A stretch of 64,000 nt of DNA from an uncultured Gammaproteobacteria bacterium (GTDB lineage Bacteria; Patescibacteriota; Patescibacteriia; Magasanikbacterales; GWA2-37-8): contig CAZHYG010000002.1 of assembly GCA_964536615.1 (NCBI GenBank), positions 45,000-108,999 of the forward strand. Direction: 5' to 3'. The notes below the pieces were generated by a model that was not told the DNA's origin, did not search any database, and saw nothing but the letters and a program-made list of their open reading frames with translations. Position 1 is the first letter of the stretch, and each line of letters starts with the position of its first letter. Position numbers and translations under genes: made by a program. Shown here piece by piece: positions 7,953-52,498 of the stretch.

Positions 7953-8040
<88 letters not shown>

Positions 8041-23375: not shown

Positions 23376-23400
23376 ATATTAAATTACCCAATTATCATAA

Positions 23401-24081
23401 TTATTCTGTGCGCAATTCATTAACCGGAGGCAGATGTTCGCTAAACGCGATATCGGGGTTATAGGTGGAATAAAACAACTCAATAAGCGATTGTGTATCC
23501 AGCCGCACCACCTCTAAATTCATACTGGTAAGGCCGGATTCAATCTGGCGCACCCGCATATCCAAATCATGTTTGCGCAATTGAAATCTTTCGTCCTTTA
23601 ATTTAATGGTTACCGCCGGATTAACCACTTCTTTTATGCGAGACCAAAATCCTTTTTTATTATTTGAAAGTGGGTCGTATGGCACAATCACAAAAAACTG
23701 CTTGCTCATAATATTGCCAAGACTCACCAATTCGGAGACAAACGAACGATAATCGGCAATTTGCACACGCAATAATTCGTTGGTTTGTTCACGCTCTTGT
23801 TTGAGCAGTTTTTCTAAATATGGCTTAATATATAGTTGTCGGGATTGCACCACAATTTGCAAAGGAAAATCAATACCGTTTAAAAATGAAACGTACGATG
23901 AAACAATCGCGTTTTGCTCATCTTCATTTTTAAGCGCAAAATTGATACTGGAAACCAAAAGAATGGCGCGCAGCGTTCCGTCTTTCATCACCACCGTATC
24001 AAATTTTATTTCCGCAAATGGCAAATGATTTTGCGCGCTTTCAATTTTTATATTGCCTTTTTTTACCCGTTCTTCTGGCAT
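23401..24081 (-). CDS. Hypothetical protein; possible detached N-terminal domain of VirB4
   Basis: 226 aa ORF 25 nt upstream of the VirB4 ATPase core; the two together add up to full VirB4 length. No motif recognised. Confidence 0.3.
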   Translation of the reverse strand: MPEERVKKGNIKIESAQNHLPFAEIKFDTVVMKDGTLRAILLVSSINFALKNEDEQNAIVSSYVSFLNGIDFPLQIVVQSRQLYIKPYLEKLLKQEREQTNELLRVQIADYRSFVSELVSLGNIMSKQFFVIVPYDPLSNNKKGFWSRIKEVVNPAVTIKLKDERFQLRKHDLDMRVRQIESGLTSMNLEVVRLDTQSLIELFYSTYNPDIAFSEHLPPVNELRTE

Positions 24082-24087
24082 ATATTT

Positions 24088-24522
24088 TTATGGTTTTTGT
24101 TCCCCGCTATAATATCCGCCCGTATTAACAATCAAGGATAAATCGCGAATACGGCTGTATGACATTTTTGGCATTTCTTTAACAGGTTCTGTAGATACAA
24201 CCGATACCGATTTGATAGCGTCTAAGAGCTCTTGTTTTTCATGCATTTTATGCCAAATTCTTCGGCTCGGACGACGTAAAGTTTGCACAATATTTAATAA
24301 AAAATAATGGAATGACTGTCCATTAATTTTTACAAATGCCAAAACTAAAGCCAAGCCACCGATAAGCACTGCTAAAAAAATAAACAATGCCGTATCTGCC
24401 CATTTAAAAGCAGCAGTCAATATTAATCCAGTCACAAGTAAAATAACAAACTGCCGCGTTGTAATAGGGCCGAAAATTTTGTCTTCAACTTCTATAAATT
24501 GTGGAACTACAAATTGATCCAT
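24088..24522 (-). CDS. PrgI/VirB3-like small two-TM membrane protein
   Basis: 144 aa with two hydrophobic helices, immediately upstream of the VirB4 ORFs as in Gram-positive-type T4SS. Confidence 0.5.
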   Translation of the reverse strand: MDQFVVPQFIEVEDKIFGPITTRQFVILLVTGLILTAAFKWADTALFIFLAVLIGGLALVLAFVKINGQSFHYFLLNIVQTLRRPSRRIWHKMHEKQELLDAIKSVSVVSTEPVKEMPKMSYSRIRDLSLIVNTGGYYSGEQKP

Positions 24523-26568: not shown

Positions 26569-29500
26569 TTATTTTTTACGCTTATTCAATTCTTTTAGGG
26601 CTTCTTCAACTTCTTTTATATTATTACCATTTTTCATTCTACCTGTTTCTAGAGCAAACTTAAGCAGGGCCTCTACCCCTCTTTTATCCGGTACTTGTTT
26701 TTCTAAACGACCAAGTAAATCTTGCAAATCCGGAACGCTGCTGTTGTCAAAAATCGCACCAATATCACCCTTAGTGAACTCTTCTACATTTCCTAAATTG
26801 TTCCCAGTTAAACCGACTGCCAATTTTACAAATATATCTTTTGAATCCTCAGATTTGACTACCAACTTTCCATCAACTCCTCGATCCATACTACCTGCAA
26901 AACCAATTACATTTGTAAGTTTAGATCCAGATAAACCATTTTTTCTTCTACCCGCAACATACTCTCTGTCGCCCTTATTTTCTGCATCCACCAAAACTGT
27001 CTTCAGTGTTGCACTATCTATCTTATACAACCCAGCTCTACCCAACGAACCCTGACCAGCAGCTTTTTCATTTTTTAATCTTTTTTGTTCTAACATGGCA
27101 TTCGCCTTATCTCCATATATTTCATTCAATCTTTCTAAAGCTTTTTCTAAACTTGCATGACTGCTTGCATCAACTTTTTCATTTATGAGCTCTGCTAAAT
27201 CTTGAGCTTGTAAATTTCGAATAGCTTGAGGAGTTAGCTCCATTGACTGAGCATTTGACATTCCTACAGCTTCCAAAATTTTGCCTTTAATACCGTCTGC
27301 TACTGCCGCATGAGTACCTAAATTACTTATCTGCATTTCAGACAAACTTCTTTCTAAAATTCTTAAAACTGTTTCTGCGGCTTTTTTAGATTTTTCATCT
27401 TTTGCGCCTGCTATTATTTTTTTCTGGGCTTCGATTCTGGCGAGCTGAGCAGTAGTTTTGGCATCACTCTGAACATAATCGCCGGCCGCATTATGTCTCT
27501 TTATCCTCTCTTCAACTTGATTGTTTATGGTATTTTGCTCGTTATTCGCCTCACTGCTTCTATTTTCATCTCTCAAGACTTTATCGCGTGCTCGAGCGAT
27601 TTGTAAATCTTGCAACTCCTTTACATCAAAATTAAGCTGTTCAGCCATAGCCTTGCTTTTAGCAGGCTCAGTCACTTCTAAACCTTGTTTTAGCAGCTCT
27701 TTTATGGATTCCAATTCTTCAATCTGCTTTTTAGCAGCCAACTCGTCTTCAATTCGTTTTGTTTCTGCTCGCACTTCCGCAGATTTACCTTGTAATTCTT
27801 TCCCTTCATTTCCATGGAGATATTTTTCTAATTTTTCTACTTCTTGTTTTTTATGCTCCTCTCCAACATATTCTTTTTTTACTTTTGCTTCTGCTTTTGA
27901 TTTCATTGATTTATTGAACCGATCAAACCCTTGTCTGGCCTTAAATATATCCATATCATCTAAGCCAAGTTCCCTAAGCTCTTTGTCAACTTCTTCTTCA
28001 GACTTGCCACGCTCTTCACCACGTTCTAAGGTGTGCATTATTTTTTCACGCAATAATTCCATGTTCGCTTCTTTTCCTGCCTTGATATCTGCACCTGTAT
28101 GTTCCAAAAAATGCAACCATTCTTTGGCTTTCTGTTTTTTCATACCAATAGGCAAACTACTTGTACTAGCCAAATGGTCTAACTGCTCATGTTTTGCTTC
28201 AGCGGTAGCTTCCAGATCTTCAGAATAAGCTTTATGGAAAGCACCATATCCAATACCCCATTCCAACCTTGCTCTGGCAAATGTTCTTTTAGCCCAATCT
28301 CCCAAACCTTTCTGATCCACAGTGTCATACTTAATATTACCATGCTCATCTTTTATAATATTACCCTGCTCATCTCTCAAGGCAACTTTTTTCACATATT
28401 TACCCTTTTCATTAACAGCGAAAGTTTTTGAAATTTCCCCAGCCTTAACCGTGCTTTTTGCAAGCCGATCATAATACCAACCTGCTGCCCTACTCTTAAT
28501 ATTATGGCCTCGTCGCTGCCAAGCTTCCCCACCAATCAACGGCATTTTCATTACCGCAAATTTCCCGGCCGCCTTTGCCCCCTCGCCAACTTTACCACCA
28601 GCCCATTTTGCAGCCTGGAAGCCAGATGCGTACATGGCGGCTTTTTTGCCCAACTCACTGGCACTGCCCATCATATGTGCTCCGGCAACGCCAAGCTCTT
28701 CAGCCATTTTTGCCCCAGCCATTAAAATTGCAATGGCGATAATAAAATTTCCCATGTTTTCCCAACTCATTACTTCTGTAATACCTGTTTGTTCTTCGGC
28801 GGGTGCAGCTGATTCTTGCAACAACTGCCCTTGTTTAAGCGAATTATGCTTCACAATATCATCGTGAATATTTCCAGAACCAACTGTAACAAAAGAAAGC
28901 CAGAGAAAAAACGCGATTACCGGACCGGAAACAACGTTACTATTAAATTTTCCCCACCATTCACCGGCAAAATGTTCGGTTTGATGTAATACATTTAAAA
29001 CAAACGCAAATGGAGAAACCACGATAAGCACCCACAACATGGCCATGCGCGCCACAATCATAAACAAAAACGCCAGCATGGTGATAAGCATTGTTACCGA
29101 AAACATGATGGCCGCTACAGAAGCTAGAAAAATTGAAGCAGTGTCTCCGGTAAAATTGTCTCCATTGCCAAGTTTAAATATTTTATCTACCTGAAACATG
29201 TTGACCAAGTTGCCGCTGGCGGTGGCGGCGATACCGTTGAGAAATGTAACCATAACAATCTGCGCCACATCTATGATAAGACCGCAAATTAAACGGCTAA
29301 AATTAACGAGCACAGCTGCTGTAACCAGCTTAACCAGCATATGTTTCCATTCGTAGTGATCCAGACCAAGAATGGTACCGAATGCTATCATTAAAAGCAC
29401 AACCACAAAAAACATATTGGTGAGATCGCGAATCATAACCCAGCCAACCGTAACTGCCGGAGAATCTATGAACCCATTGTAACCAGCGACTTCAATGATA

Positions 29501-29757
29501 AATTTGAGAACAAAAAACGTAAGCTTGATACAAAAACCTGCCAACAAAAATAGCAGACCAGCAAATGCCTTGCCGATAGTTTCGCCAACACCACTTAACC
29601 AACCAGCTTGCGCAAACGGAGCAAAAACAAACCAACTAGTGATGATTGCGCTGGTAATTATAATAAAACTAACTAAGCCTAATTTTTTATGAGAACGAAA
29701 AAAAGACCAGAGCTGTCTGAAAATTAAACGCGCCTGTAGTGCAAATTGAGCAAACAT
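26569..29757 (-). CDS. VirB6/TrbL-like polytopic membrane protein with ~700 aa charged coiled-coil C-terminal extension
   Basis: N-terminal ~350 aa with multiple TM helices; then a long K/E/A-rich heptad-like region (KELQDLQIARARDKVLRDE..). Confidence 0.55.
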   Translation of the reverse strand: MFAQFALQARLIFRQLWSFFRSHKKLGLVSFIIITSAIITSWFVFAPFAQAGWLSGVGETIGKAFAGLLFLLAGFCIKLTFFVLKFIIEVAGYNGFIDSPAVTVGWVMIRDLTNMFFVVVLLMIAFGTILGLDHYEWKHMLVKLVTAAVLVNFSRLICGLIIDVAQIVMVTFLNGIAATASGNLVNMFQVDKIFKLGNGDNFTGDTASIFLASVAAIMFSVTMLITMLAFLFMIVARMAMLWVLIVVSPFAFVLNVLHQTEHFAGEWWGKFNSNVVSGPVIAFFLWLSFVTVGSGNIHDDIVKHNSLKQGQLLQESAAPAEEQTGITEVMSWENMGNFIIAIAILMAGAKMAEELGVAGAHMMGSASELGKKAAMYASGFQAAKWAGGKVGEGAKAAGKFAVMKMPLIGGEAWQRRGHNIKSRAAGWYYDRLAKSTVKAGEISKTFAVNEKGKYVKKVALRDEQGNIIKDEHGNIKYDTVDQKGLGDWAKRTFARARLEWGIGYGAFHKAYSEDLEATAEAKHEQLDHLASTSSLPIGMKKQKAKEWLHFLEHTGADIKAGKEANMELLREKIMHTLERGEERGKSEEEVDKELRELGLDDMDIFKARQGFDRFNKSMKSKAEAKVKKEYVGEEHKKQEVEKLEKYLHGNEGKELQGKSAEVRAETKRIEDELAAKKQIEELESIKELLKQGLEVTEPAKSKAMAEQLNFDVKELQDLQIARARDKVLRDENRSSEANNEQNTINNQVEERIKRHNAAGDYVQSDAKTTAQLARIEAQKKIIAGAKDEKSKKAAETVLRILERSLSEMQISNLGTHAAVADGIKGKILEAVGMSNAQSMELTPQAIRNLQAQDLAELINEKVDASSHASLEKALERLNEIYGDKANAMLEQKRLKNEKAAGQGSLGRAGLYKIDSATLKTVLVDAENKGDREYVAGRRKNGLSGSKLTNVIGFAGSMDRGVDGKLVVKSEDSKDIFVKLAVGLTGNNLGNVEEFTKGDIGAIFDNSSVPDLQDLLGRLEKQVPDKRGVEALLKFALETGRMKNGNNIKEVEEALKELNKRKK

Positions 29758-29950
29758 TTTTTAGCGATTATGTTGTATGCATTATACCATATTTTTAACA
29801 CGTCAACAACGCAAAAACATTAGTAAAAAATATGTGGATAAAAATATTATCGCGGGCTTGCATATTGCATTTTGGCATGGCCTATGTATAATACATATAT
29901 ACCTTTTTAGCGGCATATACGCGTATGCACTGTTTATGATGTGCTATAGA

Positions 29951-29979
29951 TTGACAAAATTGTTAAAAAGGTGTATACT
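29951..29979 (+). promoter_or_regulatory. Near-consensus sigma70 promoter TTGACA-17-TATACT
   Basis: TTGACA at 29951-29956, 17-nt spacer, TATACT at 29974-29979, in native AT-rich DNA pointing toward the GC-rich island. Confidence 0.45.
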
Positions 29980-29985
29980 TGTTAG

Positions 29986-30002
29986 TTATCCATAATGGAT
30001 AA
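29986..30002. promoter_or_regulatory. Perfect 17-bp palindrome TTATCCAT-A-ATGGATAA (candidate operator) at the predicted TSS
   Basis: 8-bp perfect arms around a single central base, 7 nt downstream of the -10 element. Confidence 0.4.
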
Positions 30003-30165
30003 TCGTTCTTTACAAAGTGCTGAAACGAGCAAAACTGCTAGTTTTAGCCAAATAATGAGTTACTACTGAAGACGCCTCTGGGCGAATATTTGCTTCTCTT
30101 CTAGACAAAGAGAGGTAGTTATTCGCCTAGAGGATTCAACTTCCCCCTCTGGGTAGGAGACCGCC

Positions 30166-30696
30166 ATGAGCAAGTCGTCCGTCAACAAGACCGCCGCGCT
30201 CGTGCGCGGCATCGTCCTGAGCATCCTCGTGATGCTCACCACCCTCCTCGCCGCCTGCGGCGGCGAGGACGACCCCATCGGCGACGCCACCACGTCGCCT
30301 GACGGCCCCGTCCAGCTGGACGGCGGCATCGACGCCATGTCGCCCCCCGATGCGCCGCAGCTGGACGTGTGCCAGCAACAGGACCCCCCTCCCCAGGGGG
30401 CGTACGTGATGAACGGAAAGAGCCTGCGGTGTGGCGCAAACGCCATGCCTGGAGACCACAACTCGTGGATCTTCGCCGGCTCCTCGGAGTTCTCCTGCAA
30501 CCTCGATGTCCACCCGGACACCGAAACGGGCGCAATTTGCGTCGTTCTGTGTGATGGGCACTTCGGCGCAGACTACACCAACCTGGTGGTGGAACGAGCG
30601 GGACTCCAAGGCCCCTACCGCTTCTACTACACCCCGCCGGGAGACGTGATGGAGTACGTGTGCTACGATCCGAGTACGCTCCCGTCTCAGTCGTAA
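30166..30696 (+). CDS. Small lipoprotein encoded in strongly GC-rich, foreign-composition DNA
   Basis: Signal peptide + 'LLAAC' lipobox; third codon positions almost all G/C; GGAGA RBS 8 nt upstream. Surrounded by AT-rich native sequence. Confidence 0.6.
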   Translation: MSKSSVNKTAALVRGIVLSILVMLTTLLAACGGEDDPIGDATTSPDGPVQLDGGIDAMSPPDAPQLDVCQQQDPPPQGAYVMNGKSLRCGANAMPGDHNSWIFAGSSEFSCNLDVHPDTETGAICVVLCDGHFGADYTNLVVERAGLQGPYRFYYTPPGDVMEYVCYDPSTLPSQS

Positions 30697-30760
30697 CTTT
30701 TGGGGCAGCTATCCGCGCTGCCCCGATCCGCTTAGTAGAAAAATAATTTTCTATTGAGCA

Positions 30761-30800
30761 AAATAAAAAATCGTTGTGTAATACAACGATTTTTTATTTT
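30761..30800. terminator. Bidirectional rho-independent terminator (AATCGTTGT-gtaat-ACAACGATT flanked by A/T runs)
   Basis: Perfect 9-bp stem; T-run on + after the island gene and T-run on - after the giant gene (which ends at 30813). Confidence 0.6.
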
Positions 30801-30812
30801 TAAAATATTATT

Positions 30813-33800
30813 TTAATTTGGCGTTACAACAACCTGCCCCGCAAATGGGGTGTACGCACCAATATTATCTTCACACTCATACTGAGGTATTGCGCCAACA
30901 GATCTATCGTAACACCCAACCCCACCTGAAGTTCCAGCAGATCCACAACTTCCATTACACCAACCCCAGTTATCTTTCAACTGTACAGCTGGTTTGAAGA
31001 CACAACATCCGCCATATAATGATTGGGTTTGCGCATCCGGACAAGTATTAGTCCAGCCGGTACCGTCGCGCGTACATTGATACACATGATCAAAACGGAA
31101 ATAGGCAGAGTCGCAAGTTTGTCCGATAATCTGACCAAAGCTTGGCGCCTTGCTTTCGGCTACACAATTATCCAAATACAAACAATCACTGCCCGACGAA
31201 CAATTTTTTCCGGTATCCAAATCGTATACACCTGCCGCGCCGGAAGAAATCATACACGTACCGCTGCTGCCGCAAATACCATTTACCGTACCGCGTTGAT
31301 TGCGGAAATAACCATCTAACGAAACTATATTGCCATCATTCCAGTCTAACTTAATTTTTTTCAACGGCATCTGATTTTTATCGGCAAAACCATAAAACTT
31401 AGCATTTACTACACCCACATTGGAACTAAACACAACATTACCGCTCGTTTTATCATTAACACTTATACCAGCGCTTAAACCTTCCAAACATTTACCTCCC
31501 GGCTTACAGGTGCCGAGCGGACGCACTTGCGGCGCGCGGTCTGGTGAAGATAATGTTTCGGTAAGATCATACGGACGAACCGCAGATGCATCACCAGCCG
31601 GCAACACACTGCTTATTTGCGTATTATTTTTATAGAAGAAGCCAGCAGATGGTGTCGAGCTAAGAGTCCAGTTCCATACACTGCTAATTTTGGCAAAAAT
31701 TTGCGAGAGGCTTGATTGCGCATCATCAAAATTACGCCCTGAAGCTTGGCCGGTTTGATCGGCGCGCGCGGAAGGATTTGTTTGCAAACAATTTCTGTCG
31801 GTACAAGCGTATGGAGAACCGACCGTTGCTGCAGGCAAAGCCGGAGTTGCGGCCGCATAATGAGAAAAAATTGAAATCAACTGATCCGGAACAAGCAAAC
31901 CTTGCATTGAGACACTGCCAAATGGTGAACCTGCTAAATTATTTTTATAATTTAATCCGGATGGATCTACGGCAAAATTACTTCTCTTCCACAAACGATC
32001 TGTCCAACCGACCGAAGTATATGGCGCATCTTTGGCTGTTTGCGCCACACTGGCACATGTTTCACGAAGACCCGCATATACATTAAATGTAGCATTTTCA
32101 AAATCAGTGCTTTCACCAGTAAAACAAACCAAACTTACATGATCAAGTTTTCCGCTCGCATCAAACATAGCTCGTATCGCACAACCATCATCATTATCAT
32201 CAACATTTTCATGTAAACAATTAGTTTGATAGTTATCGGCTCTTTCCACATCAACACTTCCACAATCTGCGCGAAGTAAATCTCTAAACTGAACTGCTGT
32301 TGTATCATACGGATCCGCATATTGATAATGCGGCAATGAAACCACGTCGCCCTGGCCATCATCCCATCGCATATACCACGCGCTTTTATCACGGCCATCA
32401 GACCAAACTTCTTGTCCGATATTTAACCCCGTTGCCTCTCCTGCAAATAACAACGATGAGTCGTTAACAAGATCTAAATTTGAACCATTGCCTGTAAAAA
32501 CTTGAGTTTGATTTGTATACTTACTTACATATCCATTTCTGATAAAAAATTTATTTGTACCATTAGGGAACCAGTCCGAATTTCCAGTTGCAGAAATCAA
32601 CAAATAATCAATTTCATCTCTGTAAACGGGCGTGCTAGCATTAACGGTCAACACCCTAATAGTACGATCATTTATCTGGTCGCTTTTTACCTCTTTGGTG
32701 CCTAATAATTTATCATAAATGGCAACATCACTACCCAACACACTTGTTACTGTTTGATTGCCTTTAGCATTTAAACAGTAGTATTTACCGGAGGCCTCAG
32801 TTGCTTGAAAACCAGCTTCCACATGCTGATTATTTATATCTAAAGCACCTGTAATACTGTCTTTAGGGAACCAGGTAAGACAAGCAAAACTTCCTTGTTC
32901 AGCATTTATCGGACGCGACAGATCTGGTTCAACGCAATATCCTTGCCAGCCAATGAGTTTGGACTGCTTCTTTAATTTTTGGCAAGTGCCGCCAGAACAA
33001 TCGCTATCAGTTGAACATACCTGATCAGCGTTATCTCCACCCACACAAATACCCGGCACAACACTCTTAAATATTTGCCCACTGCCACCAGCAATGCCCT
33101 GGCTATTCGGGTTATTGAAATTCCAATATCTTGTGAACGAATCACCGTATGATGCTTTGGTGTAACTACACTCGCAAGCATATGCCTTATCTCTGTCGGT
33201 GGTAGAGGTTGGCGATTCAGCACAGACGTTAACCGAGTTAAACAAGACTGAATTTTCTATATTGCTTGTATTTGGGAACGGGGATGTCTCCTCTGGATAC
33301 GCTCGGCAAGATGGCGAGATTGATTGACGAGGAGCGTTACTGGAAGCGTCATCTAAATTTTGCACACAGACTGGATTGCCTGCTCCCATACACACACCAA
33401 TGTTACTTCGACCGCAGGCCAGACCAACTGCATTTGATTTGCAGGCAGTGTTGTTTGGATTTGTGGTTTTACAATTTGCACCGCCGCCACAACCCATAGT
33501 TTTTGCCAAACGCCAATCGGTGTTTGTAGCACTGCCAACATTAACTTCGGATAATTCTTCCAACGGGAATGTATTTAAAATACTAAAGCCGCTAAAATCT
33601 TCTCCGCGCCAATCGGTACTTCGGTTGCGATACGCTGTTTCGGTCAATACTTGACCGCTCAAATCATGGGAATTATCAACCCAATTTGCACAATTAATAA
33701 GGCCATTACCTGTGGAACCTGAAACCTTATTACACCTTCCCACATCGTCACAAACCTCTTTATATGTGCCAGATTGGGGATCGAACACGCGATGCGAAGA

Positions 33801-36800
33801 TCGACACTGCAACCATTCGCCGCATTCTCTATCTCTACTTACTTTCAAAACTACATTAGCATCATTGACGGACGATCCTGAACCAGCAACCGGAGCAACC
33901 AATTCGCCATTTTGCGCTGTGCTGGCCGCATACGAAGCAGCTGTATTCCATAATTTATTTGGAGAATCTGTTTTATCAAACAAAACACAACCATTTTTTT
34001 CACTTACCTGGCCATTACATTGAGTCTGTTGCGATTTTAACTTATCGTCATTTATTAAATAATAAGTTTTATTATTTTCATTTCTGTCAATAAATTCGGT
34101 ACATCCGCTTTGCGCTGCGGCACATTCACCAACAAAATTACTGTATCTACCACTGTCACCATACGACCATAAGCCGTAATTATTGCCGGATTGCAGATAG
34201 CTTGGATAGCAAGCTTGCTCCCCCTTTCCCTGACATGTCGCGCCGCCTGTACAATCACTATCCGAAGAACATAATGCGGAACCTGACGATCCGCCGCCTT
34301 GGCAAACACCCACATCTTTCCAAAACCAACCATTATATTTAACACCATCTTTTACAACATTTTCTTTATAGGCACAAACTTTTTGACCGATAACTGCCGG
34401 ATCCTTAAAGAACAAAGATCCATTTGCCGAAGAATATGCGTTACATCCAACAGCCTCACTCTGACACAATGTTGTATCAAATGAAGCCGGATCTTTCTTA
34501 ATAAATACATCAGTATACACAGGTCCGGTCGGAGTTTCGGTAACTTTTCCGGCTTTGGAACAACCGACATCTACTGCGTTACAGGTTGTATTTCTGCTTG
34601 CAACCAAATATATTGGTGATGAAGTTGGTGTATCTGCTTGCACATACACAGTTGATGTGGAAACTACTCCGCCACCAGCAGTAATTTGAGCAATCGTAAT
34701 GCCGGTGGTATTAACATAACAACCGCTTTGGCCTAGCGCAACCTGGCATGTATATGAGGTTCCACCCATAATCTTTGTAACTGTTTGACCTTCCGGACCT
34801 GACAACCAAACATTATATGCGCGCGGTCCAGGATCATCAGGTGTATTGGCTGTATCAAAGAGAGCAGTGCAACCGATAGCATTTTCACGGCACAGCGAGG
34901 TGAAACCTGTTAAATATATTGAATTATTATCAGGTGTCTTGTATTGAGAGCAGCCAAGTGCTTCTCCTGGCAAGTTATCATTAACATTACTGTCGCATAC
35001 CGGATCAACTTTGAGCGTATTTTTTACCACATATATGTAATCGGAAATTTCTTTGAGGCTGACATTGTCTAAGAATAAACGGCCATTGACTATAAATTTA
35101 AGCTGAGTACTGCTAGCAGAGCCATTTAACTCTACTGGACCAAGATGATAGCTTTGCCAACTATCACCAACACTTACCGTACCCAGAGTTTGCACACTGT
35201 CATTTTCAAGAGTAACGGTTACTGTTTCTCCGGCAGATCCTTTTGCCCAGAAAACCAAATCATAACTTTGACCAGGCGTGAGAGATACGGTTTTAGATAC
35301 GAACTGTGAGCCCGTATATGACAATGAATGTTCGCCGGTGTGGGTTGATTCTAAAGATTGAGTTACTCCGTTAGCGCTCCAACCTGATAGAGCATCGCTT
35401 AATACTGACTGCTCAAAATTATTACTAAAAATATTGCGAACGTTATTGCCAGTATTGCCTTTGTACGCCCGACATGAACTTACTGTGGCTGCACAGGTCT
35501 TACTGGTTCCAGCCACATCTTGAGCACCGCCTGGCAAACCATAATAGAAACATTGCCCATCTCTATATTCACCGTTTTGGAAACATACTTGGCAAGTTTG
35601 CGTACCTGCATCAAATTTACCTTTATCCAAATCACATTTATCTTGACTTGAAGCTACTGTTTCCATTTCCGTGTCATTTAACCGATACGGAGTACACATG
35701 GTAGAAACCGTAATGGTTTTTGACAGCAATTTATAATAAACCTGTCCAGCATCATCGTTAAACTGCCGGCAATCCGGACTGGCTAGACCTGACTTATATA
35801 AAGACTCATTACATACTGCATCATAATCTTCTAACAAACGACTGCTGCGATAAAAATACTTTGGACTGCCATCAGAGTCTTGCTCCAACACAAATGATTT
35901 CAGTTGAAAACCGCCAACTGCAGAACCTTCGTAGGTATAAAATTTCTTTTGTTTGTTTGCGTCAGGCAAAATACATGGACGCAAATATGAGAAGTGCTCT
36001 ACTTTTTCCACGCCATTATTTGTATCACCTAAGTTGGTAAAGCTGGCACAACCTTCGTCAGCAGCGCTACATGCTGCGCCAGATGATGGGATAATATAGG
36101 CAACAGATTGGCCGCTAGAATAGCTGCTTGGCATTTCTTTGTATGCGCTATACCCGACACATCGAGCATCACATTGATCATTCCAAACAATTGCATCGTT
36201 TACAATTTGCGCAGGAGTAAATTTACCCGGAATACGATCTCCGCTATAGCTAGTCGGCTGATACCAGTTACAACTTACTTCATCGGCAATACATGCCGGG
36301 GCATAACTGCTGCATTCTGGTTTTGTTCCTAATTTATTCAAATCACTTGCGCTACGAGGCCAATCTACCGCAAGTGTTGATGTGTCTGTGTCATAACACT
36401 GAGCGTAATATGGCGCCTTCCGCAAATACAAATTATCTGCGGTACTGGCTGTTTTAAACGCACTACAACCATCTGAGTTGGCCGAACAATTTGTAGAAAC
36501 TTTATTATTAAAATAAATAACCGAATTTTCACCGCTGTTTATATCTGCCGGAGAGTAACCAGTCCATTGCCCCGAAGCATTCTTCTTTAAACTATACGCA
36601 GAGCAACCTACGGTATCTTGCGTACAAAAACCAGTATCCAACGTGCGATAGAGATAGCTGACGGTGACCCCATTGGCGTTTTGAAATGATTGGCAAGTGC
36701 GATACTGCGCATCGCATTTATTTGCATCAACTTTCCAAACATTTTTTTCTCTGGTGCAGTAACCTTGAGTGGCACAATTACCGTCTTTATCATAAGCGAC

Positions 36801-38426
36801 ACACGTGGTCATATCTACACATTCTTGGGTGCGATTAGCTGTGCCAGATAAAGCAGCTGGTGTAGAACCAAACGCCATAAAATTACAGGTGGCTGGAGGT
36901 GCTTTGATAACCCAGTTTGGATCAATGAGGTGACAGAATGGTTTATTTACAGGATCATTATCTACACCCACCACATTGCCATTTACGTCTTTAATAAAAT
37001 TACAGTCATTAAAACCATCAACCACTTGCTTGAGAGTCCAAGGCTTATCCGGATTGCTGTTTAACGTAGCGACCTCAAACCCAAGCGGCAAAATCCGCGC
37101 CTTACGCAATTTGGCAATGTTAGCATAACAATATGCGCGCTGATGACAGCTCGTGTCAGTGTTATCAGCGATGCGATCCGGGGACACAAGCTTCCATTCT
37201 CCGTGAAGCCAATTTTTTTCAATTGCTTCTCTTATAGTGACGGCCTTACCGACATTTGCTTCCTGTGCTGCTTGAGCTAACCCATTGTCTGCCACACAAT
37301 TTTCTGCGCTTGGGTTTGCTGGGCAGTTAGTGAAATTCAATAATAAATTATACTGATCAACACGCAGGTTAGGAGGGGTGAGCAGATCACTAAACAAAGC
37401 CTGCGCGGATTGTCTTCCGCCTCTGCCTAATTGACCTTCCAAACTACTAAGCGTATCTTGCAAAGTTTTACACCCTTCTCCACCCACACCGCCCACACAA
37501 ATTCCAAGAGGTAGCATGCCTTTTTCTTGCCAATTTTTTAACATCTGAGAAGCGAGCGTGTTGAAAAATAAAGAACCTGCGCTGGCAATACTGCCAATCG
37601 CTCCAGTGCCTAATGTGGCAAAAAATCCCGCTTCAGCAGATTTCTTTTGCTCGCTCGGATTTTGCGACTGCGCTTCTTCCGCAATATTTTTTGCCGGTGT
37701 TACAATCTCTCCCGAAATAAGAGTTGTTTTTGGATTGTACCCATCCCCCTCTTCGCGCTGCAGCTTAGCAGCTTCTGTTTGTTGAGCCACATAGTTATCA
37801 ATTTTTTCTGTGGCGCTAAGCAAAATACCCACATCTGTCTGCTCTAAAGAAAAAGCAACATTAAATTTACGGGCAATATCATCTGTGGAACCAAATTGAC
37901 TCTGCCAATTGCTGGCGCTTAACACTTCATTTTGAAAAGTTGACCAAGTACAAGTAGGTTTATTAACTCCTTGGGTTTGTGTATTAAGATTCGTATTAAG
38001 ATCCAAATATTTACGCGTCAAACCAATACGCATGGCCAAATCTATTTTTGGATCTGGGATTTTACATAAATTGAGGCCGTATGGAGAACCTAAAGCCTCA
38101 ATAGCCACACCGGCTGCATTATCCCCCACATCTTTCATGTAACTGCCGAAGTCTTTATATTGCGCGAACGGAGACTGGCCTTTATTGCCTGAGGCCAACC
38201 AAACAGCAGTATCATATGCAACTCGACGTAAAAAATATGAAAAAGACTGAATCGCAATATTTACCGCAGCGGTTTTAATAAAGCGTTCCGCCAAACTTGG
38301 TAAATCAGAAATAACTTCTACCGGGATTGCTTTGGCTGGACGAACATATAAAAACGAACCACCTACGCTTACAAATACAAAAATAAATAAAAGTATTTTA
38401 GTTGCGATTCTTTGAAACTTTGACAT
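30813..38426 (-). CDS. Giant (2537 aa) secreted Cys-rich cell-surface protein, putative adhesin with a beta-sandwich carbohydrate-binding-like region
   Basis: N-terminal signal/TM anchor; uninterrupted 7.6-kb ORF; many Cys pairs, Gly/Ser/Thr/Asn-rich; segment 'WQSYHLGPVELNGSASSTQLKFIVNGRLFLDNVSL' resembles CBM/LamG beta-sandwich modules. Confidence 0.6.
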   Translation of the reverse strand: MSKFQRIATKILLFIFVFVSVGGSFLYVRPAKAIPVEVISDLPSLAERFIKTAAVNIAIQSFSYFLRRVAYDTAVWLASGNKGQSPFAQYKDFGSYMKDVGDNAAGVAIEALGSPYGLNLCKIPDPKIDLAMRIGLTRKYLDLNTNLNTQTQGVNKPTCTWSTFQNEVLSASNWQSQFGSTDDIARKFNVAFSLEQTDVGILLSATEKIDNYVAQQTEAAKLQREEGDGYNPKTTLISGEIVTPAKNIAEEAQSQNPSEQKKSAEAGFFATLGTGAIGSIASAGSLFFNTLASQMLKNWQEKGMLPLGICVGGVGGEGCKTLQDTLSSLEGQLGRGGRQSAQALFSDLLTPPNLRVDQYNLLLNFTNCPANPSAENCVADNGLAQAAQEANVGKAVTIREAIEKNWLHGEWKLVSPDRIADNTDTSCHQRAYCYANIAKLRKARILPLGFEVATLNSNPDKPWTLKQVVDGFNDCNFIKDVNGNVVGVDNDPVNKPFCHLIDPNWVIKAPPATCNFMAFGSTPAALSGTANRTQECVDMTTCVAYDKDGNCATQGYCTREKNVWKVDANKCDAQYRTCQSFQNANGVTVSYLYRTLDTGFCTQDTVGCSAYSLKKNASGQWTGYSPADINSGENSVIYFNNKVSTNCSANSDGCSAFKTASTADNLYLRKAPYYAQCYDTDTSTLAVDWPRSASDLNKLGTKPECSSYAPACIADEVSCNWYQPTSYSGDRIPGKFTPAQIVNDAIVWNDQCDARCVGYSAYKEMPSSYSSGQSVAYIIPSSGAACSAADEGCASFTNLGDTNNGVEKVEHFSYLRPCILPDANKQKKFYTYEGSAVGGFQLKSFVLEQDSDGSPKYFYRSSRLLEDYDAVCNESLYKSGLASPDCRQFNDDAGQVYYKLLSKTITVSTMCTPYRLNDTEMETVASSQDKCDLDKGKFDAGTQTCQVCFQNGEYRDGQCFYYGLPGGAQDVAGTSKTCAATVSSCRAYKGNTGNNVRNIFSNNFEQSVLSDALSGWSANGVTQSLESTHTGEHSLSYTGSQFVSKTVSLTPGQSYDLVFWAKGSAGETVTVTLENDSVQTLGTVSVGDSWQSYHLGPVELNGSASSTQLKFIVNGRLFLDNVSLKEISDYIYVVKNTLKVDPVCDSNVNDNLPGEALGCSQYKTPDNNSIYLTGFTSLCRENAIGCTALFDTANTPDDPGPRAYNVWLSGPEGQTVTKIMGGTSYTCQVALGQSGCYVNTTGITIAQITAGGGVVSTSTVYVQADTPTSSPIYLVASRNTTCNAVDVGCSKAGKVTETPTGPVYTDVFIKKDPASFDTTLCQSEAVGCNAYSSANGSLFFKDPAVIGQKVCAYKENVVKDGVKYNGWFWKDVGVCQGGGSSGSALCSSDSDCTGGATCQGKGEQACYPSYLQSGNNYGLWSYGDSGRYSNFVGECAAAQSGCTEFIDRNENNKTYYLINDDKLKSQQTQCNGQVSEKNGCVLFDKTDSPNKLWNTAASYAASTAQNGELVAPVAGSGSSVNDANVVLKVSRDRECGEWLQCRSSHRVFDPQSGTYKEVCDDVGRCNKVSGSTGNGLINCANWVDNSHDLSGQVLTETAYRNRSTDWRGEDFSGFSILNTFPLEELSEVNVGSATNTDWRLAKTMGCGGGANCKTTNPNNTACKSNAVGLACGRSNIGVCMGAGNPVCVQNLDDASSNAPRQSISPSCRAYPEETSPFPNTSNIENSVLFNSVNVCAESPTSTTDRDKAYACECSYTKASYGDSFTRYWNFNNPNSQGIAGGSGQIFKSVVPGICVGGDNADQVCSTDSDCSGGTCQKLKKQSKLIGWQGYCVEPDLSRPINAEQGSFACLTWFPKDSITGALDINNQHVEAGFQATEASGKYYCLNAKGNQTVTSVLGSDVAIYDKLLGTKEVKSDQINDRTIRVLTVNASTPVYRDEIDYLLISATGNSDWFPNGTNKFFIRNGYVSKYTNQTQVFTGNGSNLDLVNDSSLLFAGEATGLNIGQEVWSDGRDKSAWYMRWDDGQGDVVSLPHYQYADPYDTTAVQFRDLLRADCGSVDVERADNYQTNCLHENVDDNDDGCAIRAMFDASGKLDHVSLVCFTGESTDFENATFNVYAGLRETCASVAQTAKDAPYTSVGWTDRLWKRSNFAVDPSGLNYKNNLAGSPFGSVSMQGLLVPDQLISIFSHYAAATPALPAATVGSPYACTDRNCLQTNPSARADQTGQASGRNFDDAQSSLSQIFAKISSVWNWTLSSTPSAGFFYKNNTQISSVLPAGDASAVRPYDLTETLSSPDRAPQVRPLGTCKPGGKCLEGLSAGISVNDKTSGNVVFSSNVGVVNAKFYGFADKNQMPLKKIKLDWNDGNIVSLDGYFRNQRGTVNGICGSSGTCMISSGAAGVYDLDTGKNCSSGSDCLYLDNCVAESKAPSFGQIIGQTCDSAYFRFDHVYQCTRDGTGWTNTCPDAQTQSLYGGCCVFKPAVQLKDNWGWCNGSCGSAGTSGGVGCYDRSVGAIPQYECEDNIGAYTPFAGQVVVTPN

Positions 38427-51592: not shown

Positions 51593-52498
51593 CTACTTGA
51601 TGTAGTCGGGATGACGGTAGGACGGCATGACACCACCCTTCAAAAACGACATCTCTGGGTCGGTGTTTTCCGCCTGAGCAAAGAAGCTCTGGCGGACGAA
51701 CTTCGTCCCGAGCTTGTTCATATGGCGGATATGGCCCTCCGGGTCGACGTCTGGGTCGGGGGCCCGATAGACCCTGACACCATCACCCCTGGGGAGGATA
51801 GGCGCGAAACAGGGGCCGAAGGTGCGCGCCAGCCGGATGAGTGGCACGATCTCTTCCACGCCCGCATTGTCGTAAGCATAGAAGAGCTTGCCGCTTTCCC
51901 AGGCTTCCGCGCGGGACTTGATCGGCGCATCCTTCTTCGGCTTGGCGCTTCGAGCGTCGAAGCAACCCACCTGAACCAGCGACATGAGATGCCACATCGC
52001 GAAGGTGTTCGCAATGCGGCCCTGCATGATCGACTCGGTCAGCTCAGTGATGGCGAGTCCCATCGCGAGCGCGCCAGCTTCGGCGGCAGTGACCAGATCT
52101 TCCGCGGCTTCATTCGTGAAGTAGGCCTCGGCCTCCTTTGAAAGAACAATGCCGTAGTCACAACCGGCGCGGAGGAGCTTGGCCGTCCCGTAGTTCAAGA
52201 TGCCGACGAAGATGTCGCCGTGCTTGACCTCGGAAACGAACACACCCTTCCAGCCCTTGACCCGGATGGCCTCGCGCAGCTTGGGCGCGGTTTGGCCACA
52301 GTCCTTCTCGGCGTAGGCATCGTCCGTGGGGACGAGGATCTCGACGCGCGAGACGAACGAGCGTCCACCGACCTGAACGGACAGCATCCGCTCCACACTT
52401 GCCACCGCAAGAGCGACGGCGTTGTCGACCAGGTTTGGTTCACGAGCAAAACAGCGCAGGAGGGCGCCTACCTTCTTTGAATCGAGCAGCATGATCAT
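51593..52498 (-). CDS. Hypothetical protein encoded in GC-rich foreign-composition DNA
   Basis: Ala/Gly/Arg-rich with high-GC codon usage, unlike its neighbours. Start set at the ATG preceded by GGAG (MLLDSKK). No domain recognised confidently. Confidence 0.5.
   Translation of the reverse strand: MIMLLDSKKVGALLRCFAREPNLVDNAVALAVASVERMLSVQVGGRSFVSRVEILVPTDDAYAEKDCGQTAPKLREAIRVKGWKGVFVSEVKHGDIFVGILNYGTAKLLRAGCDYGIVLSKEAEAYFTNEAAEDLVTAAEAGALAMGLAITELTESIMQGRIANTFAMWHLMSLVQVGCFDARSAKPKKDAPIKSRAEAWESGKLFYAYDNAGVEEIVPLIRLARTFGPCFAPILPRGDGVRVYRAPDPDVDPEGHIRHMNKLGTKFVRQSFFAQAENTDPEMSFLKGGVMPSYRHPDYIK

What the first reader, a model, noticed from the sequence alone, without database searches (positions are those of the whole stretch)
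30063..30735. GC-rich single-gene island encoding a lipoprotein, embedded in AT-rich native DNA
Between about 30070 and 30730 the composition switches abruptly from the window's AT-rich background to strongly GC-rich DNA. It contains exactly one ORF (30166-30696) with nearly every third codon position G/C, an 'LLAAC' lipobox and Pro/Asp-rich actinobacterial- or myxobacterial-style usage. It has its own GGAGA RBS and is flanked on both sides by native low-GC sequence, including native terminators. Native sequence on both sides of such a short foreign segment argues for a recent horizontal acquisition from a high-GC donor rather than an end-of-contig chimera. For a small-genome, possibly episymbiotic organism the donor could be its high-GC host. 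A second island of the same character sits at 51.6-52.6 kb.
Basis: seen in the sequence. Interest (0 to 1): 0.7.

Follow-up and report, generated by a model that had tools for sequence, protein, structure and literature searches.

The report
Persistently GC-rich secretion-locus lipoprotein gene
A small surface-lipoprotein gene in the type IV secretion cluster of an ultra-small (Patescibacteria/CPR) bacterium uses GC-rich codons foreign to its AT-rich genome. It is not a recent import: it is an old, vertically inherited resident that has kept this composition through very long divergence.

Summary
Only two stretches of the 41% GC window exceed 55% GC. One is the 176-aa lipoprotein ORF at 30166-30696 (65% GC, GC3 0.86, against about 0.36 for the other genes). 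An assembly chimera is excluded: the identical gene with the same neighbours occurs in at least 7 independent assemblies.

"Recent acquisition from a high-GC host" is not supported. The gene sits in the same slot, between a ~2,530-aa Cys-rich surface protein and a VirB6-like membrane protein of a type IV secretion-like cluster, in every relative found. This holds down to lineages whose neighbouring proteins are only 55-68% identical. The gene co-diverges with those neighbours. Its four-fold sites have turned over heavily, yet GC stays at 0.70-0.88 while flanks sit at 0.23-0.43. An exhaustive profile search of 1.84 billion proteins found full-length homologues only in this slot, none in a high-GC organism.

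The gene has a conserved native promoter and a structured ~180-nt leader. Its C-terminal domain exists in at least three mutually unalignable types.

Best reading: an old, fast-evolving secretion-associated surface lipoprotein whose GC-rich, strongly structured mRNA is actively maintained. The reason is unknown.

The second island (51593-52498) shares the codon usage but is a conserved Patescibacteria GT-A-fold enzyme gene that has been relocated.

The parts
29951..29979 (+). Sigma-70-type promoter of the lipoprotein gene: TTGACA, 17-nt spacer, TATACT.
   Evidence: Matches 11 of 12 consensus positions. TTGACAAAA and the -10 box are invariant or conserved in 8 lineages.
29986..30002 (+). Leader hairpin P1, at or near the predicted 5' end (palindrome UUAUCCAUAAUGGAUAA). 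It could equally be a palindromic operator.
   Evidence: Folding. The stem changes by paired substitutions between lineages: GTTATCC/GGATAAC, GTTATT/AATAAC, GTTGT/ACAAC, TTGTTG/CAACAA.
30008..30053 (+). Conserved leader core: motif CTTTACAAAGTGCT, hairpin P2 (30019-30048) and motif GTTTTAGCCAAAT.
   Evidence: The blocks are conserved down to the most distant lineage, L035. P2 is predicted in most lineages. The first motif has no other match in the window, and the second has no other match closer than 2 mismatches, at about the number expected by chance. No Rfam family matches.
30075..30133 (+). Leader hairpin P3: long imperfect stem (26-nt arms) of intermediate GC content.
   Evidence: Inverted repeat I1. 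The whole leader folds with MFE z = -6.7. A long hairpin occupies the same position with unrelated sequence in L009, L035 and L039; L037 folds into a longer, more interrupted stem there.
30155..30160 (+). Shine-Dalgarno sequence AGGAGA, 5 nt upstream of the ATG.
   Evidence: Read directly from the sequence. A GGAG is kept upstream of the start in most orthologues; L039 has AAGG.
30166..30696 (+). GC-rich lipoprotein CDS (176 aa). Residues 1-31 are the signal peptide with lipobox LAAC (Cys31, 30256-30258). Residues 32-68 are an Asp/Pro/Gly-rich disordered linker. Residues 69-176 are a Cys-containing beta-rich domain (type A).
   Evidence: ORF and composition. Cys31, Cys69, Cys89, Cys125 and Cys166 are invariant in 5 type-A homologues. 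The AF2 model shows a helix at 9-29, a disordered 30-80 and strands at 85-167, but with mean pLDDT only 54. No Pfam or NCBIfam family matches.
30702..30724 (+). GC-rich 3' hairpin directly after the stop codon (GGGGCAGC...GCUGCCCC), with no U-tract.
   Evidence: Read from the sequence. A GC-rich hairpin of different sequence follows the stop codon in L009, L012, L035, L037 and L039.
30760..30800 (.). Native AT-rich bidirectional intrinsic terminator, shared with the convergent giant gene.
   Evidence: Inverted repeat I2: 18-nt arms, 100% complementary, A-tract and T-tract on either side. It is present with compensated stems in all lineages.
30813..38426 (-). Neighbour: 2,537-aa Cys-rich secreted or surface protein.
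   Evidence: ORF. Weak CBM_4_9 hit in orthologues. It flanks the slot in every lineage that carries the lipoprotein gene.
26569..29757 (-). Neighbour: 1,062-aa polytopic membrane protein, VirB6-like by topology and position only. The N-terminal membrane domain is highly conserved and the C-terminal half is variable.
   Evidence: ORF. No Pfam hit. The N-terminal 330 aa are 78-99% identical in relatives. The C-terminal half is replaced in L008.
21501..24522 (-). Core genes of the type IV secretion-like cluster: VirB4-type ATPase (21501-23375), TraC-like protein (23401-24081) and PrgI/VirB3-like protein (24088-24522).
   Evidence: Pfam: P-loop_TraG 8e-27, AAA_10, DUF87 and PrgI 1e-9. The TraC_F_IV match to the 23401-24081 protein is below the curated cut-off. 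Relatives have the same gene order, where the precomputed Pfam label for that gene is TraC-like.
51593..52498 (-). Second GC-rich gene (301 aa from MIMLL...; GC3 0.76), using the same codon dialect. It encodes a conserved Patescibacteria GT-A-fold enzyme.
   Evidence: It has 98 homologues; every one that carries a source name is from Patescibacteria. AF2 model pLDDT 84 with GT-A fold matches. Codon table.

Best explanation
The island is one independent transcription unit: native promoter, a ~180-nt structured leader, CDS, a GC-rich 3' hairpin and a shared terminator. It encodes a small surface lipoprotein belonging to the chromosomal type IV secretion-like (MPF-FATA-type) cluster of a Patescibacteria lineage related to 'Ca. 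Magasanikbacteria'.

Shown: the gene has been in this slot, inherited vertically, since before the radiation of a clade whose neighbouring proteins have diverged to 55-68% identity. Its protein evolves about twice as fast as its neighbours, and its C-terminal domain exists in at least three mutually unalignable types exchanged by recombination. Its GC-rich composition is a stationary state, not a fading trace of recent transfer: synonymous sites keep being substituted but stay about 80% G/C.

Inferred: a fixation bias favouring G/C acts on this CDS, with a population-scaled strength of about 2 per site. The most likely form is selection on the nucleic acid itself, giving an unusually stable, highly structured mRNA. 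An ancient high-GC source may have seeded it.

Inferred from context only: the protein is a polymorphic surface factor working with the secretion apparatus in partner recognition, adhesion or exclusion.
For: Not an artefact: the identical gene and context are found on contigs from at least 7 independent samples.

Same slot and same GC anomaly in every relative:
- L008: GC3 0.80.
- L012/L033 (type B): 0.86 in L012.
- L009/L034: 0.68-0.75.
- L037/L038: 0.79.
- L039: 0.85.
- L035 (type C): 0.73.
- Flanks in these loci are mostly 38-44% GC.

Co-divergence: identities of the island protein and of the giant protein's C-terminus rank the same way, at 88/96, 68/75 and 42-45/61-64%. Island dS against flank dS is 0.41 vs 0.49 (L008) and 1.16 vs 2.3 (L009), so there is no hypermutation and no later arrival.

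Stationarity: at four-fold sites of conserved residues the flanks are at or near strong/weak (S/W; S = G or C, W = A or T) saturation (tau 1.5 to more than 6), with four-fold-site GC 0.23-0.43. Tau is the relaxation measure from a two-state S/W model. The island sites have also turned over (tau 0.7-3.3 about their own equilibrium) but remain at 0.70-0.88. Even starting from 100% GC at the L037 split, neutral decay should leave 0.50 or less; observed values are 0.81 and 0.73.

No donor: the full HMMER scan of 1.84e9 representatives gives full-length hits only in this slot. Nothing was found in plasmids, phages or viral contigs.

Native regulatory integration: conserved promoter, leader motifs and hairpins with compensatory changes.

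Not translational codon optimisation: both G- and C-ending codons are favoured (AAG 100%, CAG 87%), and the GroEL-sized gene and NusA have GC3 0.34-0.36.

mRNA structure: the CDS folds at -0.41 to -0.49 kcal/mol/nt against -0.28 for a native gene. It is more stable than block-wise synonymous shuffles in 6 of 6 lineages (z -1.5 to -3.4); four native controls gave -2.5 to +1.2.

Secretion context: and PMC12102498.
Against: - The cause of the G/C bias is not demonstrated. The folding excess is modest, rests on 20-24 shuffles per gene, does not control dinucleotides across codon boundaries, and one native control also gave z = -2.5.
- Four-fold site counts in the island are small (27-87), and the two-state decay model is crude.
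- Types B and C cannot be shown to descend from type A, so part of the persistence could reflect replacement by other GC-rich alleles of unknown source.
- A short high-GC contig encodes a 67-aa ORF 44% identical over the signal peptide and linker, so an external high-GC pool is not fully excluded.
- All genomes are metagenome assemblies, with no expression or population data.
- The proposed function rests on gene context alone. The lipoprotein type does not co-vary with the variable part of the VirB6-like protein: window vs L012 has a different type but 95% identical VirB6-like protein, while window vs L008 has the same type but only 67%.
Confidence: 0.55

Rival explanations
1. Recurrent allele import. 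The slot is repeatedly overwritten, by homologous recombination through its highly conserved flanks, with alleles from an unsampled GC-rich gene pool. The pool could be GC-richer Patescibacteria relatives or a host. The gene would then always look freshly foreign.
For: - The locus is a recombination mosaic: L008 lacks homology to window 25848-27820 and L012 lacks 30376-30780. The VirB6-like genes of L012 and L033 are 96% identical at four-fold sites, against 79% for the island and the giant gene.
- There are three unalignable C-terminal types.
- Relatives of this family range from 41 to 54% genomic GC.
- Island 2 appears to have moved between contexts.
- P0109 is a high-GC look-alike of the N-terminal module.
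Against: - Type-A identities rank exactly as the flanks do, and dS scales with flank dS.
- Every homologue retrieved from about 15 billion proteins that could be placed on a contig long enough to show its neighbours sits in a low-GC Patescibacteria slot; none was found in a GC-rich genome.
- The N-terminal module, which is shared between types, is the most GC-rich part, with GC3 0.97-1.0.
Confidence: 0.15
2. A single ancient transfer from a high-GC donor followed by slow, still unfinished amelioration, with no force maintaining GC.
For: - The codon usage looks like that of a genome of 65% GC or more.
- GC3 varies between lineages (0.68-0.86), and sites with A/T in one lineage are largely independent of those in another. 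This is compatible with independent decay from about 100%.
- A relative with a different architecture (L036) has no such gene.
Against: - Flank four-fold sites are saturated between the window and L009, L037 and L035 (tau 1.5 to more than 6), so at most about 20% of any initial excess should remain. Observed four-fold-site GC is 0.73-0.87.
- GC3 does not fall with divergence: L037 is 0.79 and L039 is 0.85, although both are more distant than L009.
- Island synonymous sites themselves have turned over (S/W tau 0.7-3.3).
Confidence: 0.1
3. GC-biased gene conversion at a recombination hotspot drives G/C alleles to fixation in this gene.
For: - Clear recombination in the locus.
- Both G- and C-ending codons and GC-rich amino acids are enriched, as expected from a nucleotide-level bias rather than codon optimisation.
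Against: - The adjacent giant and VirB6-like genes take part in the same recombination mosaic but keep GC3 about 0.33.
- The GC-rich tract stops sharply at the ends of the CDS and its 3' hairpin, although exchange tracts run beyond them into the terminator and the giant gene.
Confidence: 0.08
4. One reading: a recent horizontal acquisition by this genome from a high-GC donor, possibly its host.
For: An abrupt compositional switch, high-GC-type codon usage and a single-gene extent.
Against: - Present in the same slot across a deep clade and co-diverging with it.
- Conserved native promoter and leader.
- No donor homologue in any collection searched.
Confidence: 0.04
5. Assembly chimera or contamination.
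For: None beyond the compositional jump.
Against: The identical junctions occur in at least 7 assemblies from different samples and assemblers. The same architecture occurs in diverged lineages.
Confidence: 0.01

Closest known systems
Compositionally atypical, horizontally acquired genes (genomic islets) and the amelioration model (Lawrence & Ochman; from my own knowledge)
   Same: A sharp single-gene jump in GC and codon usage relative to the resident genome. The gene is absent from one distant relative with a different locus architecture.
   Different: The anomaly is as old as a family-level clade and shows no progressive amelioration. The gene has a conserved native promoter and leader. No donor lineage, mobility gene, tRNA or convincing target duplication was found.
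Entry-exclusion proteins of conjugative elements that target the VirB6 homologue, such as YddJ/ConG of ICEBs1 (10.1101/2021.01.25.428195); TrbK of RP4 (from my own knowledge)
   Same: A small, lipid-anchored, fast-evolving and polymorphic protein encoded inside an MPF-FATA-type secretion cluster next to the VirB6-like gene, which itself has a variable region.
   Different: There is no sequence or fold similarity. The lipoprotein type does not co-vary with the variable part of the VirB6-like protein. The Patescibacteria system is chromosomal and reported to lack key conjugation components (PMC12102498). YddJ is not compositionally anomalous as far as I know.
Patescibacteria chromosomal type IV secretion system, MPF-FATA-like (PMC12102498)
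   Same: The cluster contains a VirB4-type ATPase, a PrgI/VirB3-like protein and a TraC-like protein. The 1,062-aa protein is VirB6-like only by topology and position.
   Different: That study does not describe a lipoprotein gene or a GC anomaly in the cluster. Here a divergently oriented GC-rich lipoprotein unit splits the cluster between the giant surface protein and the VirB6-like gene.
VirB7 lipoproteins of diderm type IV secretion systems
   Same: A small, fast-evolving lipoprotein encoded within a secretion cluster, with no usable HMM.
   Different: VirB7 works with the outer-membrane proteins VirB9 and VirB10, which monoderm MPF-FATA-type systems lack. At 176 aa with a ~110-aa beta-rich, Cys-containing domain, this protein is much larger than classical VirB7.
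Very stable envelope-protein mRNAs with protective 5' hairpins (E. coli ompA and lpp; from my own knowledge)
   Same: A strong promoter, a hairpin at the extreme 5' end, a 3' stem-loop and an abundant envelope lipoprotein as the product.
   Different: In those cases stability comes from the untranslated regions, not from recoding the whole CDS to about 65% GC. Stability has not been measured here.

Membership tests
Recently acquired horizontal gene / genomic island | Atypical base composition and codon usage relative to the resident genome | tested here: met
   GC 65% against 41%. GC3 0.86 against a median of 0.36.
Recently acquired horizontal gene / genomic island | Patchy distribution: absent from close relatives at the same site | tested here: not met
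   Present in the same slot in all relatives retrieved whose giant neighbour is 55-96% identical. It is missing only in L036, which also lacks the giant gene.
Recently acquired horizontal gene / genomic island | Closest homologues lie in a compositionally matching donor lineage | tested here: not met
   1.84e9-representative HMM scan, word-indexed search of about 5.8e9 clustered proteins, plasmids, phages and viral contigs: full-length homologues were found only in the Patescibacteria slot. There is one 50-residue look-alike of the signal peptide and linker on a high-GC contig.
Recently acquired horizontal gene / genomic island | Mobility hallmarks at the borders (integrase, tRNA, direct repeats) | tested here: not met
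   There is no tRNA within 22 kb and the neighbours are secretion-cluster genes. The only bracketing repeat is a 10-nt match at about chance level, and one copy of it is coding.
Recently acquired horizontal gene / genomic island | Synonymous composition decaying towards the host genome (amelioration) | tested here: not met
   Four-fold-site GC is 0.70-0.88 in all lineages despite saturated flanks, and there is no trend with divergence.
Bacterial lipoprotein (Lgt/Lsp substrate) | Signal peptide with a positively charged n-region, a hydrophobic h-region and a lipobox [LVI][ASTVI][GAS]C | tested here: met
   MSKSSVNKTAALVR / GIVLSILVMLTTL / LAAC. The Cys is invariant in 5 type-A homologues and is also present in types B and C. 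This is a pattern reading; no dedicated predictor was available.
Bacterial lipoprotein (Lgt/Lsp substrate) | Lipid modification and cleavage by Lgt and Lsp | not testable with these tools
   Needs biochemistry. The presence of lgt and lsp in the genome was not checked.
Entry-exclusion lipoprotein of a type IV secretion system (YddJ/TrbK-like) | Small membrane-anchored protein encoded in the secretion cluster | tested here: met
   A 176-aa lipoprotein lying between the giant surface protein and the VirB6-like gene.
Entry-exclusion lipoprotein of a type IV secretion system (YddJ/TrbK-like) | Allelic specificity types matched to a variable region of the VirB6 homologue | tested here: inconclusive
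   At least three C-terminal types exist, but the type does not track the variable half of the VirB6-like protein. It does track the last ~20 residues of the giant protein, which may be mere linkage.
Entry-exclusion lipoprotein of a type IV secretion system (YddJ/TrbK-like) | Sequence or fold homology to a known exclusion protein | tested here: not met
   No Pfam or NCBIfam hit. The AF2 model is weak (pLDDT 54) and gave no PDB match.
Entry-exclusion lipoprotein of a type IV secretion system (YddJ/TrbK-like) | Blocks transfer from cells carrying the cognate system | not testable with these tools
   Needs a cultured host-epibiont system.
Known cis-regulatory RNA (Rfam) | Leader matches a curated covariance model | tested here: not met
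   No match near a gathering score in 29600-30900.

The most novel reading that the evidence does not exclude
The GC-rich state is an adaptive property that selection keeps in place. A small set of Patescibacteria genes, here the polymorphic secretion-cluster lipoprotein and an unrelated GT-A enzyme gene, would be written in a second codon dialect of about 65% GC. This dialect yields hyper-structured, probably long-lived or specially regulated mRNAs, and it persists as a gene-specific compositional equilibrium through the whole history of a family-level clade. A more extreme version would be that the dialect is matched to a high-GC partner cell in which the nucleic acid acts. In either version the locus would be a natural experiment separating selection on GC content from mutation bias and from biased gene conversion in bacteria.
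Probability: 0.3. Interest if true: 0.75.

Novelty: new variant of a known kind. Interest (0 to 1): 0.6.

Why it matters
Compositional islands are routinely read as recent horizontal transfers. This one shows that reading can be wrong. A single gene has held GC3 near 0.8 in a genome with GC3 about 0.35 for long enough to saturate its neighbours' synonymous sites.

That makes it a compact, tractable case for an old question: is GC content in bacteria shaped by selection or by biased fixation, rather than by mutation alone?

It also adds an undescribed, polymorphic lipoprotein family with a conserved structured leader to the Patescibacteria type IV secretion cluster. That apparatus has been shown elsewhere to be essential for epibiotic growth. 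The variable surface domain is an obvious candidate for partner or host specificity.

Tried and rejected
- Pfam and NCBIfam on both island proteins: no family.
- Rfam on the locus: only sub-threshold noise.
- AF2 of the lipoprotein with a 5-sequence alignment: pLDDT 54. Foldseek against PDB gave no match with E below 0.3, so no fold assignment was made.
- Plasmid, phage and viral-contig searches: nothing.
- Type B as a frameshifted or overprinted version of type A: six-frame comparison gives only weak low-complexity hits, so this was rejected.
- Hypermutation: rejected because island dS is no higher than flank dS.
- Translational codon optimisation: rejected because G-ending codons are favoured as much as C-ending ones, and the GroEL-sized gene and NusA are not GC3-rich.
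- Tandem repeats in the island: none.
- Target-site duplication: the 10-nt repeat ATTGAGCAAA brackets the unit, but it is at about chance level and the left copy is coding.
- Antisense ORFs 30063-30521 and 30136-30609: treated as shadow ORFs of a GC3-rich frame.
- Polarising strong/weak changes on the window and L008 branches with L009 as outgroup: abandoned, because with 34 sites and a nearly saturated outgroup the two models predict indistinguishable counts.
- First folding script: timed out.
- Metagenome scan with the VirB6-like N-terminal domain: only 3 loci returned.
Full report
**1. The observation**

The window is 41.1% GC. In 300-bp windows the mean is 0.411 and the sd 0.050. Only two stretches exceed 55%: 30001-30750 (peak 0.70) and 51551-52600 (peak 0.63). 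At 200-bp resolution GC climbs from 0.36 to 0.73 and drops back to 0.38 within about 700 bp.

The stretch holds one sense ORF, 30166-30696 (+), of 176 aa. Its GC1/GC2/GC3 are 0.64/0.48/0.86. The median GC3 over 53 ORFs is 0.36, and credible genes range from 0.24 to 0.45. The only comparable outlier is the ORF in the second island, at 0.76.

The protein starts with a textbook lipoprotein signal: a basic n-region, a hydrophobic core and the lipobox LAAC with Cys31. An AGGAGA ribosome-binding site precedes the ATG. A perfect 18-bp bidirectional terminator follows at 30760-30800.

**2. Not an artefact**

The identical protein is encoded on contigs from at least seven independent samples and assemblers. 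Where the contigs are long enough, the neighbours are the same. L001 is 99.98% identical to the window over 9.4 kb, straight across both junctions.

**3. Genomic context**

The gene lies, in opposite orientation, between two genes on the minus strand: a 2,537-aa Cys-rich secreted protein (30813-38426) and a 1,062-aa polytopic membrane protein (26569-29757). Downstream on the minus strand come two unannotated genes, then a PrgI/VirB3-like gene, a TraC-like gene and a VirB4-type ATPase (Pfam: P-loop_TraG 8e-27, PrgI 1e-9; the TraC_F_IV match is below the curated cut-off).

This is the chromosomal MPF-FATA-like type IV secretion cluster recently described for Patescibacteria (PMC12102498). That paper mentions no lipoprotein or GC anomaly in it. 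A relative's orthologue is named 'Candidatus Magasanikbacteria' by NCBI.

**4. Relatives**

A word-indexed search of about 5.8 billion clustered proteins found five relatives. An exhaustive HMMER scan of 1.84 billion cluster representatives with a three-sequence profile found eight hits. Five of them are real family members and the other three are a synthetic construct and signal-peptide or linker look-alikes.

Every family member whose contig is long enough to show neighbours sits in the same slot of a Patescibacteria genome with low-GC flanks (mostly 38-44% GC). A metagenome scan with the conserved membrane domain of the 1,062-aa neighbour added three more loci.

| Locus | Giant-protein identity to window | Slot gene | Slot-gene GC3 |
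|---|---|---|---|
| L008 | 93% | type A, 88% identical | 0.80 |
| L012 / L033 | 91% (L012) | type B | 0.86 (L012) |
| L009 / L034 | 76% | type A, 68% identical | 0.68-0.75 |
| L037 / L038 | 68% | type A, about 45% identical | 0.79 |
| L039 | not measured over full length | type A, about 42% identical | 0.85 |
| L035 | 55% | third type | 0.73 |

Types A, B and C share the signal peptide, the lipobox and an Asp/Pro/Gly-rich linker ending near '...PQLD.C'. Their ~110-residue C-terminal domains cannot be aligned with one another. They are not frameshifted versions of each other.

The most distant locus, L036, has neither the giant gene nor a lipoprotein gene. A 154-aa ORF carrying only the giant protein's C-terminal domain ends 190 bp before the VirB6-like gene.

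**5. Age and mode of inheritance**

For type A, the identities of the island protein and of the giant protein's C-terminus rank identically: 88/96, 65-68/75-76 and 42-45/61-64%.

Island dS is close to flank dS. Window vs L008 gives 0.41 against 0.49. Window vs L009 gives 1.16 against about 2.3, where both are near saturation.

dN is about twice that of the giant gene (0.085 vs 0.040; 0.27 vs 0.17). The gene has therefore co-diverged with its neighbours. It evolves fast at the protein level but is not hypermutating. 'Recent acquisition' is excluded.

**6. The composition is stationary**

I looked at four-fold degenerate sites of codons whose amino acid is conserved and classed each base as strong (G/C) or weak (A/T). 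Tau is the relaxation measure from a two-state strong/weak model.

- In the flanks, strong/weak mismatch between the window and L009, L037 or L035 is at or near its saturation value (tau 1.5 to more than 6). Four-fold-site GC there is 0.23-0.43.
- In the island the same sites have also turned over. Strong/weak mismatch is 0.13-0.37, giving tau 0.7-3.3 about the island's own equilibrium. Only 43-57% of bases are identical at the deeper splits. Four-fold-site GC nevertheless stays at 0.70-0.88 in every lineage, with no trend with distance.
- Under the genome's mutational regime, even a gene that was 100% GC at the L037 split should now be at 0.50 or below (my inference from the two-state model). 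Observed values are 0.81 and 0.73.

The odds ratio between island and flank composition implies a population-scaled bias of about ln(8.7), or roughly 2, per site in favour of G/C (inference). The site counts are small (27-87) and the model is crude. The direction is nevertheless consistent in all seven pairwise comparisons, including a type-B pair.

**7. What kind of bias**

The codon table of the island family is a high-GC dialect. AAG is 100% (background 18%), ATC 96% (15%), CAG 87% and GAG 68%. CTC/CTG and GTC dominate, and TTA is absent. The unrelated gene in island 2 uses nearly the same table.

- Because G-ending codons are favoured as much as C-ending ones, and the GroEL-sized gene and NusA have GC3 0.34-0.36, ordinary selection for translationally optimal codons is unlikely.
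- Amino-acid usage is also shifted towards GC-rich codons, pointing to a nucleotide-level pressure.
- Biased gene conversion fits poorly. The locus is clearly a recombination mosaic: L008 lacks homology to 25848-27820 and L012 lacks 30376-30780. The VirB6-like genes of L012 and L033 are 96% identical at four-fold sites while the island and giant gene are 79%. Yet the recombining neighbours keep GC3 about 0.33. The GC-rich tract ends sharply at the CDS plus a GC-rich 3' hairpin.
- RNA-level selection has some support. The CDS folds at -0.41 to -0.49 kcal/mol/nt, against -0.28 for a native gene. It is more stable than synonymous shuffles (global z -2.9 to -4.6; within 40-codon blocks z -1.5 to -3.4 in six of six lineages). 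Four native controls gave -2.5 to +1.2.
- The unit has a near-consensus promoter (11/12), a hairpin at the predicted 5' end and a GC-rich stem-loop right after the stop codon in every lineage. Together these suggest a very stable, heavily structured mRNA.

This last step is inference, not demonstration.

**8. The leader**

Between the promoter (29951-29979) and the ATG lies a leader of about 180 nt.

- It contains hairpin P1 (29986-30002), a conserved core (CTTTACAAAGTGCT, hairpin P2, GTTTTAGCCAAAT; 30008-30053) and a long hairpin P3 (30075-30133).
- The whole leader folds with z = -6.7.
- The sequence blocks are conserved down to L035.
- The P1 stem changes by paired substitutions.
- P3 is replaced by long hairpins of unrelated sequence in L009, L035 and L039 (L037 has a more interrupted stem there).
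- No Rfam family matches. The first core motif has no other match in the window and the second has none closer than two mismatches, at chance level.

A foreign CDS would not be expected to carry such an old, lineage-wide native control region unless it had been resident for a very long time.

**9. Function (inference from context)**

The product is a surface-anchored lipoprotein with a disordered acidic linker and a small Cys-containing beta-rich domain. The AF2 model has pLDDT of only 54 and gives no fold match.

A small, polymorphic lipoprotein next to a VirB6-like gene recalls exclusion proteins such as YddJ of ICEBs1, which targets the VirB6 homologue ConG with allele specificity (10.1101/2021.01.25.428195). 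There is no homology, however, and the lipoprotein type does not co-vary with the variable half of the VirB6-like protein. It does co-vary with the last ~20 residues of the giant protein, which may simply be linkage.

I therefore file it only as 'works perhaps like' a recognition or exclusion factor.

**10. The second island**

ORF 51593-52498 (-) has 98 homologues at 36-92% identity; every one that carries a source name is from Patescibacteria. Its predicted structure (pLDDT 84) has a GT-A glycosyltransferase/nucleotidyltransferase fold.

In relatives with 48-54% GC genomes (L016 at 87% identity, L018 at 78%) it sits in a glycan-synthesis cluster: PMT_2, LPG_synthase_TM, GT4, UDP-glucose dehydrogenase and GT2. 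Only L017 shares the window's NusA/ComEC context.

Its GC3 exceeds that of its neighbours by about 0.4 in the window and L017. The excess is about 0.25 in L016, L018 and L024, and 0-0.13 elsewhere.

It is thus a conserved phylum-level gene that was relocated or transferred within the phylum. It is not a gift from a high-GC host, although it shares the dialect of island 1.

**11. Verdict**

The most interesting residue is unexplained: a gene-specific GC-rich equilibrium maintained over deep time in a hypervariable secretion-associated gene.

The main alternatives are listed with the tests that would separate them:

- recurrent import from an unsampled GC-rich pool;
- unfinished amelioration;
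- biased gene conversion.

Noticed in passing
window 51593-52498 (-); L016, L017, L018: The second GC-rich gene encodes a conserved Patescibacteria GT-A-fold enzyme (98 homologues). In relatives with 48-54% GC genomes it lies in a glycan-synthesis cluster. In the window and L017 it sits alone between NusA and a ComEC-like gene. It shares island 1's codon dialect (AAG 100%, ATC 87%).
   Followed up: partly
window 7854-7943 and 7953-8040: ARAGORN calls two adjacent tRNA-Ser genes. One has the unusual anticodon ACT (A at position 34) and the other has GCT.
   Followed up: no
window 25848-27820; L008, L012, L033: The secretion locus is a recombination mosaic. L008 has no nucleotide homology to the C-terminal half of the 1,062-aa VirB6-like gene (67% aa identity overall, against 99% in the N-terminal domain). 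The VirB6-like genes of L012 and L033 are 96% identical at four-fold sites, while their island and giant genes are 79%.
   Followed up: partly
window 30816-30890 (C-terminus of the giant protein, minus strand): The last ~20 residues of the giant protein differ with the lipoprotein type next door: type A has YDRSVGAIPQYEC, type B has YDGGWQTNGTNEC and type C has YDAGWRAGGQDEC. This could be linkage within one exchange tract or co-adaptation.
   Followed up: no
window 29745-29754 and 30753-30762: An exact 10-nt direct repeat, ATTGAGCAAA, brackets the whole lipoprotein transcription unit (spacing 1,008 bp). It is at about chance level for AT-rich DNA, and the left copy is coding (start of the 1,062-aa gene), so it was not taken as a target-site duplication.
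   Followed up: partly
window 29889-29909 vs 29964-29984: The -10 module of the lipoprotein promoter (TAAAAAGGTGTATACT) recurs as an inverted copy 54 nt upstream. It is probably the divergent promoter of the VirB6-like operon. A block TGTGGATAAAAA (29833-29844) between them is conserved in all four aligned lineages.
   Followed up: no
L036 3347-4001: The most distant relative has no giant gene. A 154-aa ORF carrying only the giant protein's C-terminal domain ends 190 bp upstream of the VirB6-like gene. There is no lipoprotein gene and no GC-rich stretch. Unrelated genes lie upstream.
   Followed up: partly
L040 (553-bp contig, GC-rich throughout): A 67-aa ORF on this contig is 44% identical over 50 residues to the lipobox and linker of the island protein (...GIDAM..PDA...D.C.Q). 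It is the only link of any kind to a high-GC organism, and it may be low-complexity convergence.
   Followed up: partly
window 28400-28700: A local GC bump (0.48-0.56) inside the 1,062-aa gene coincides with an Ala/Gly-rich stretch. The gene's overall GC3 is ordinary (0.33), and the bump's own third-position GC was not measured.
   Followed up: no
L016, L018, L019, L020 versus the window: Lineages whose island-2 protein is 58-87% identical to the window's range from 41% to 54% genomic GC. Genome-wide GC therefore appears to shift quickly in this group.
   Followed up: no
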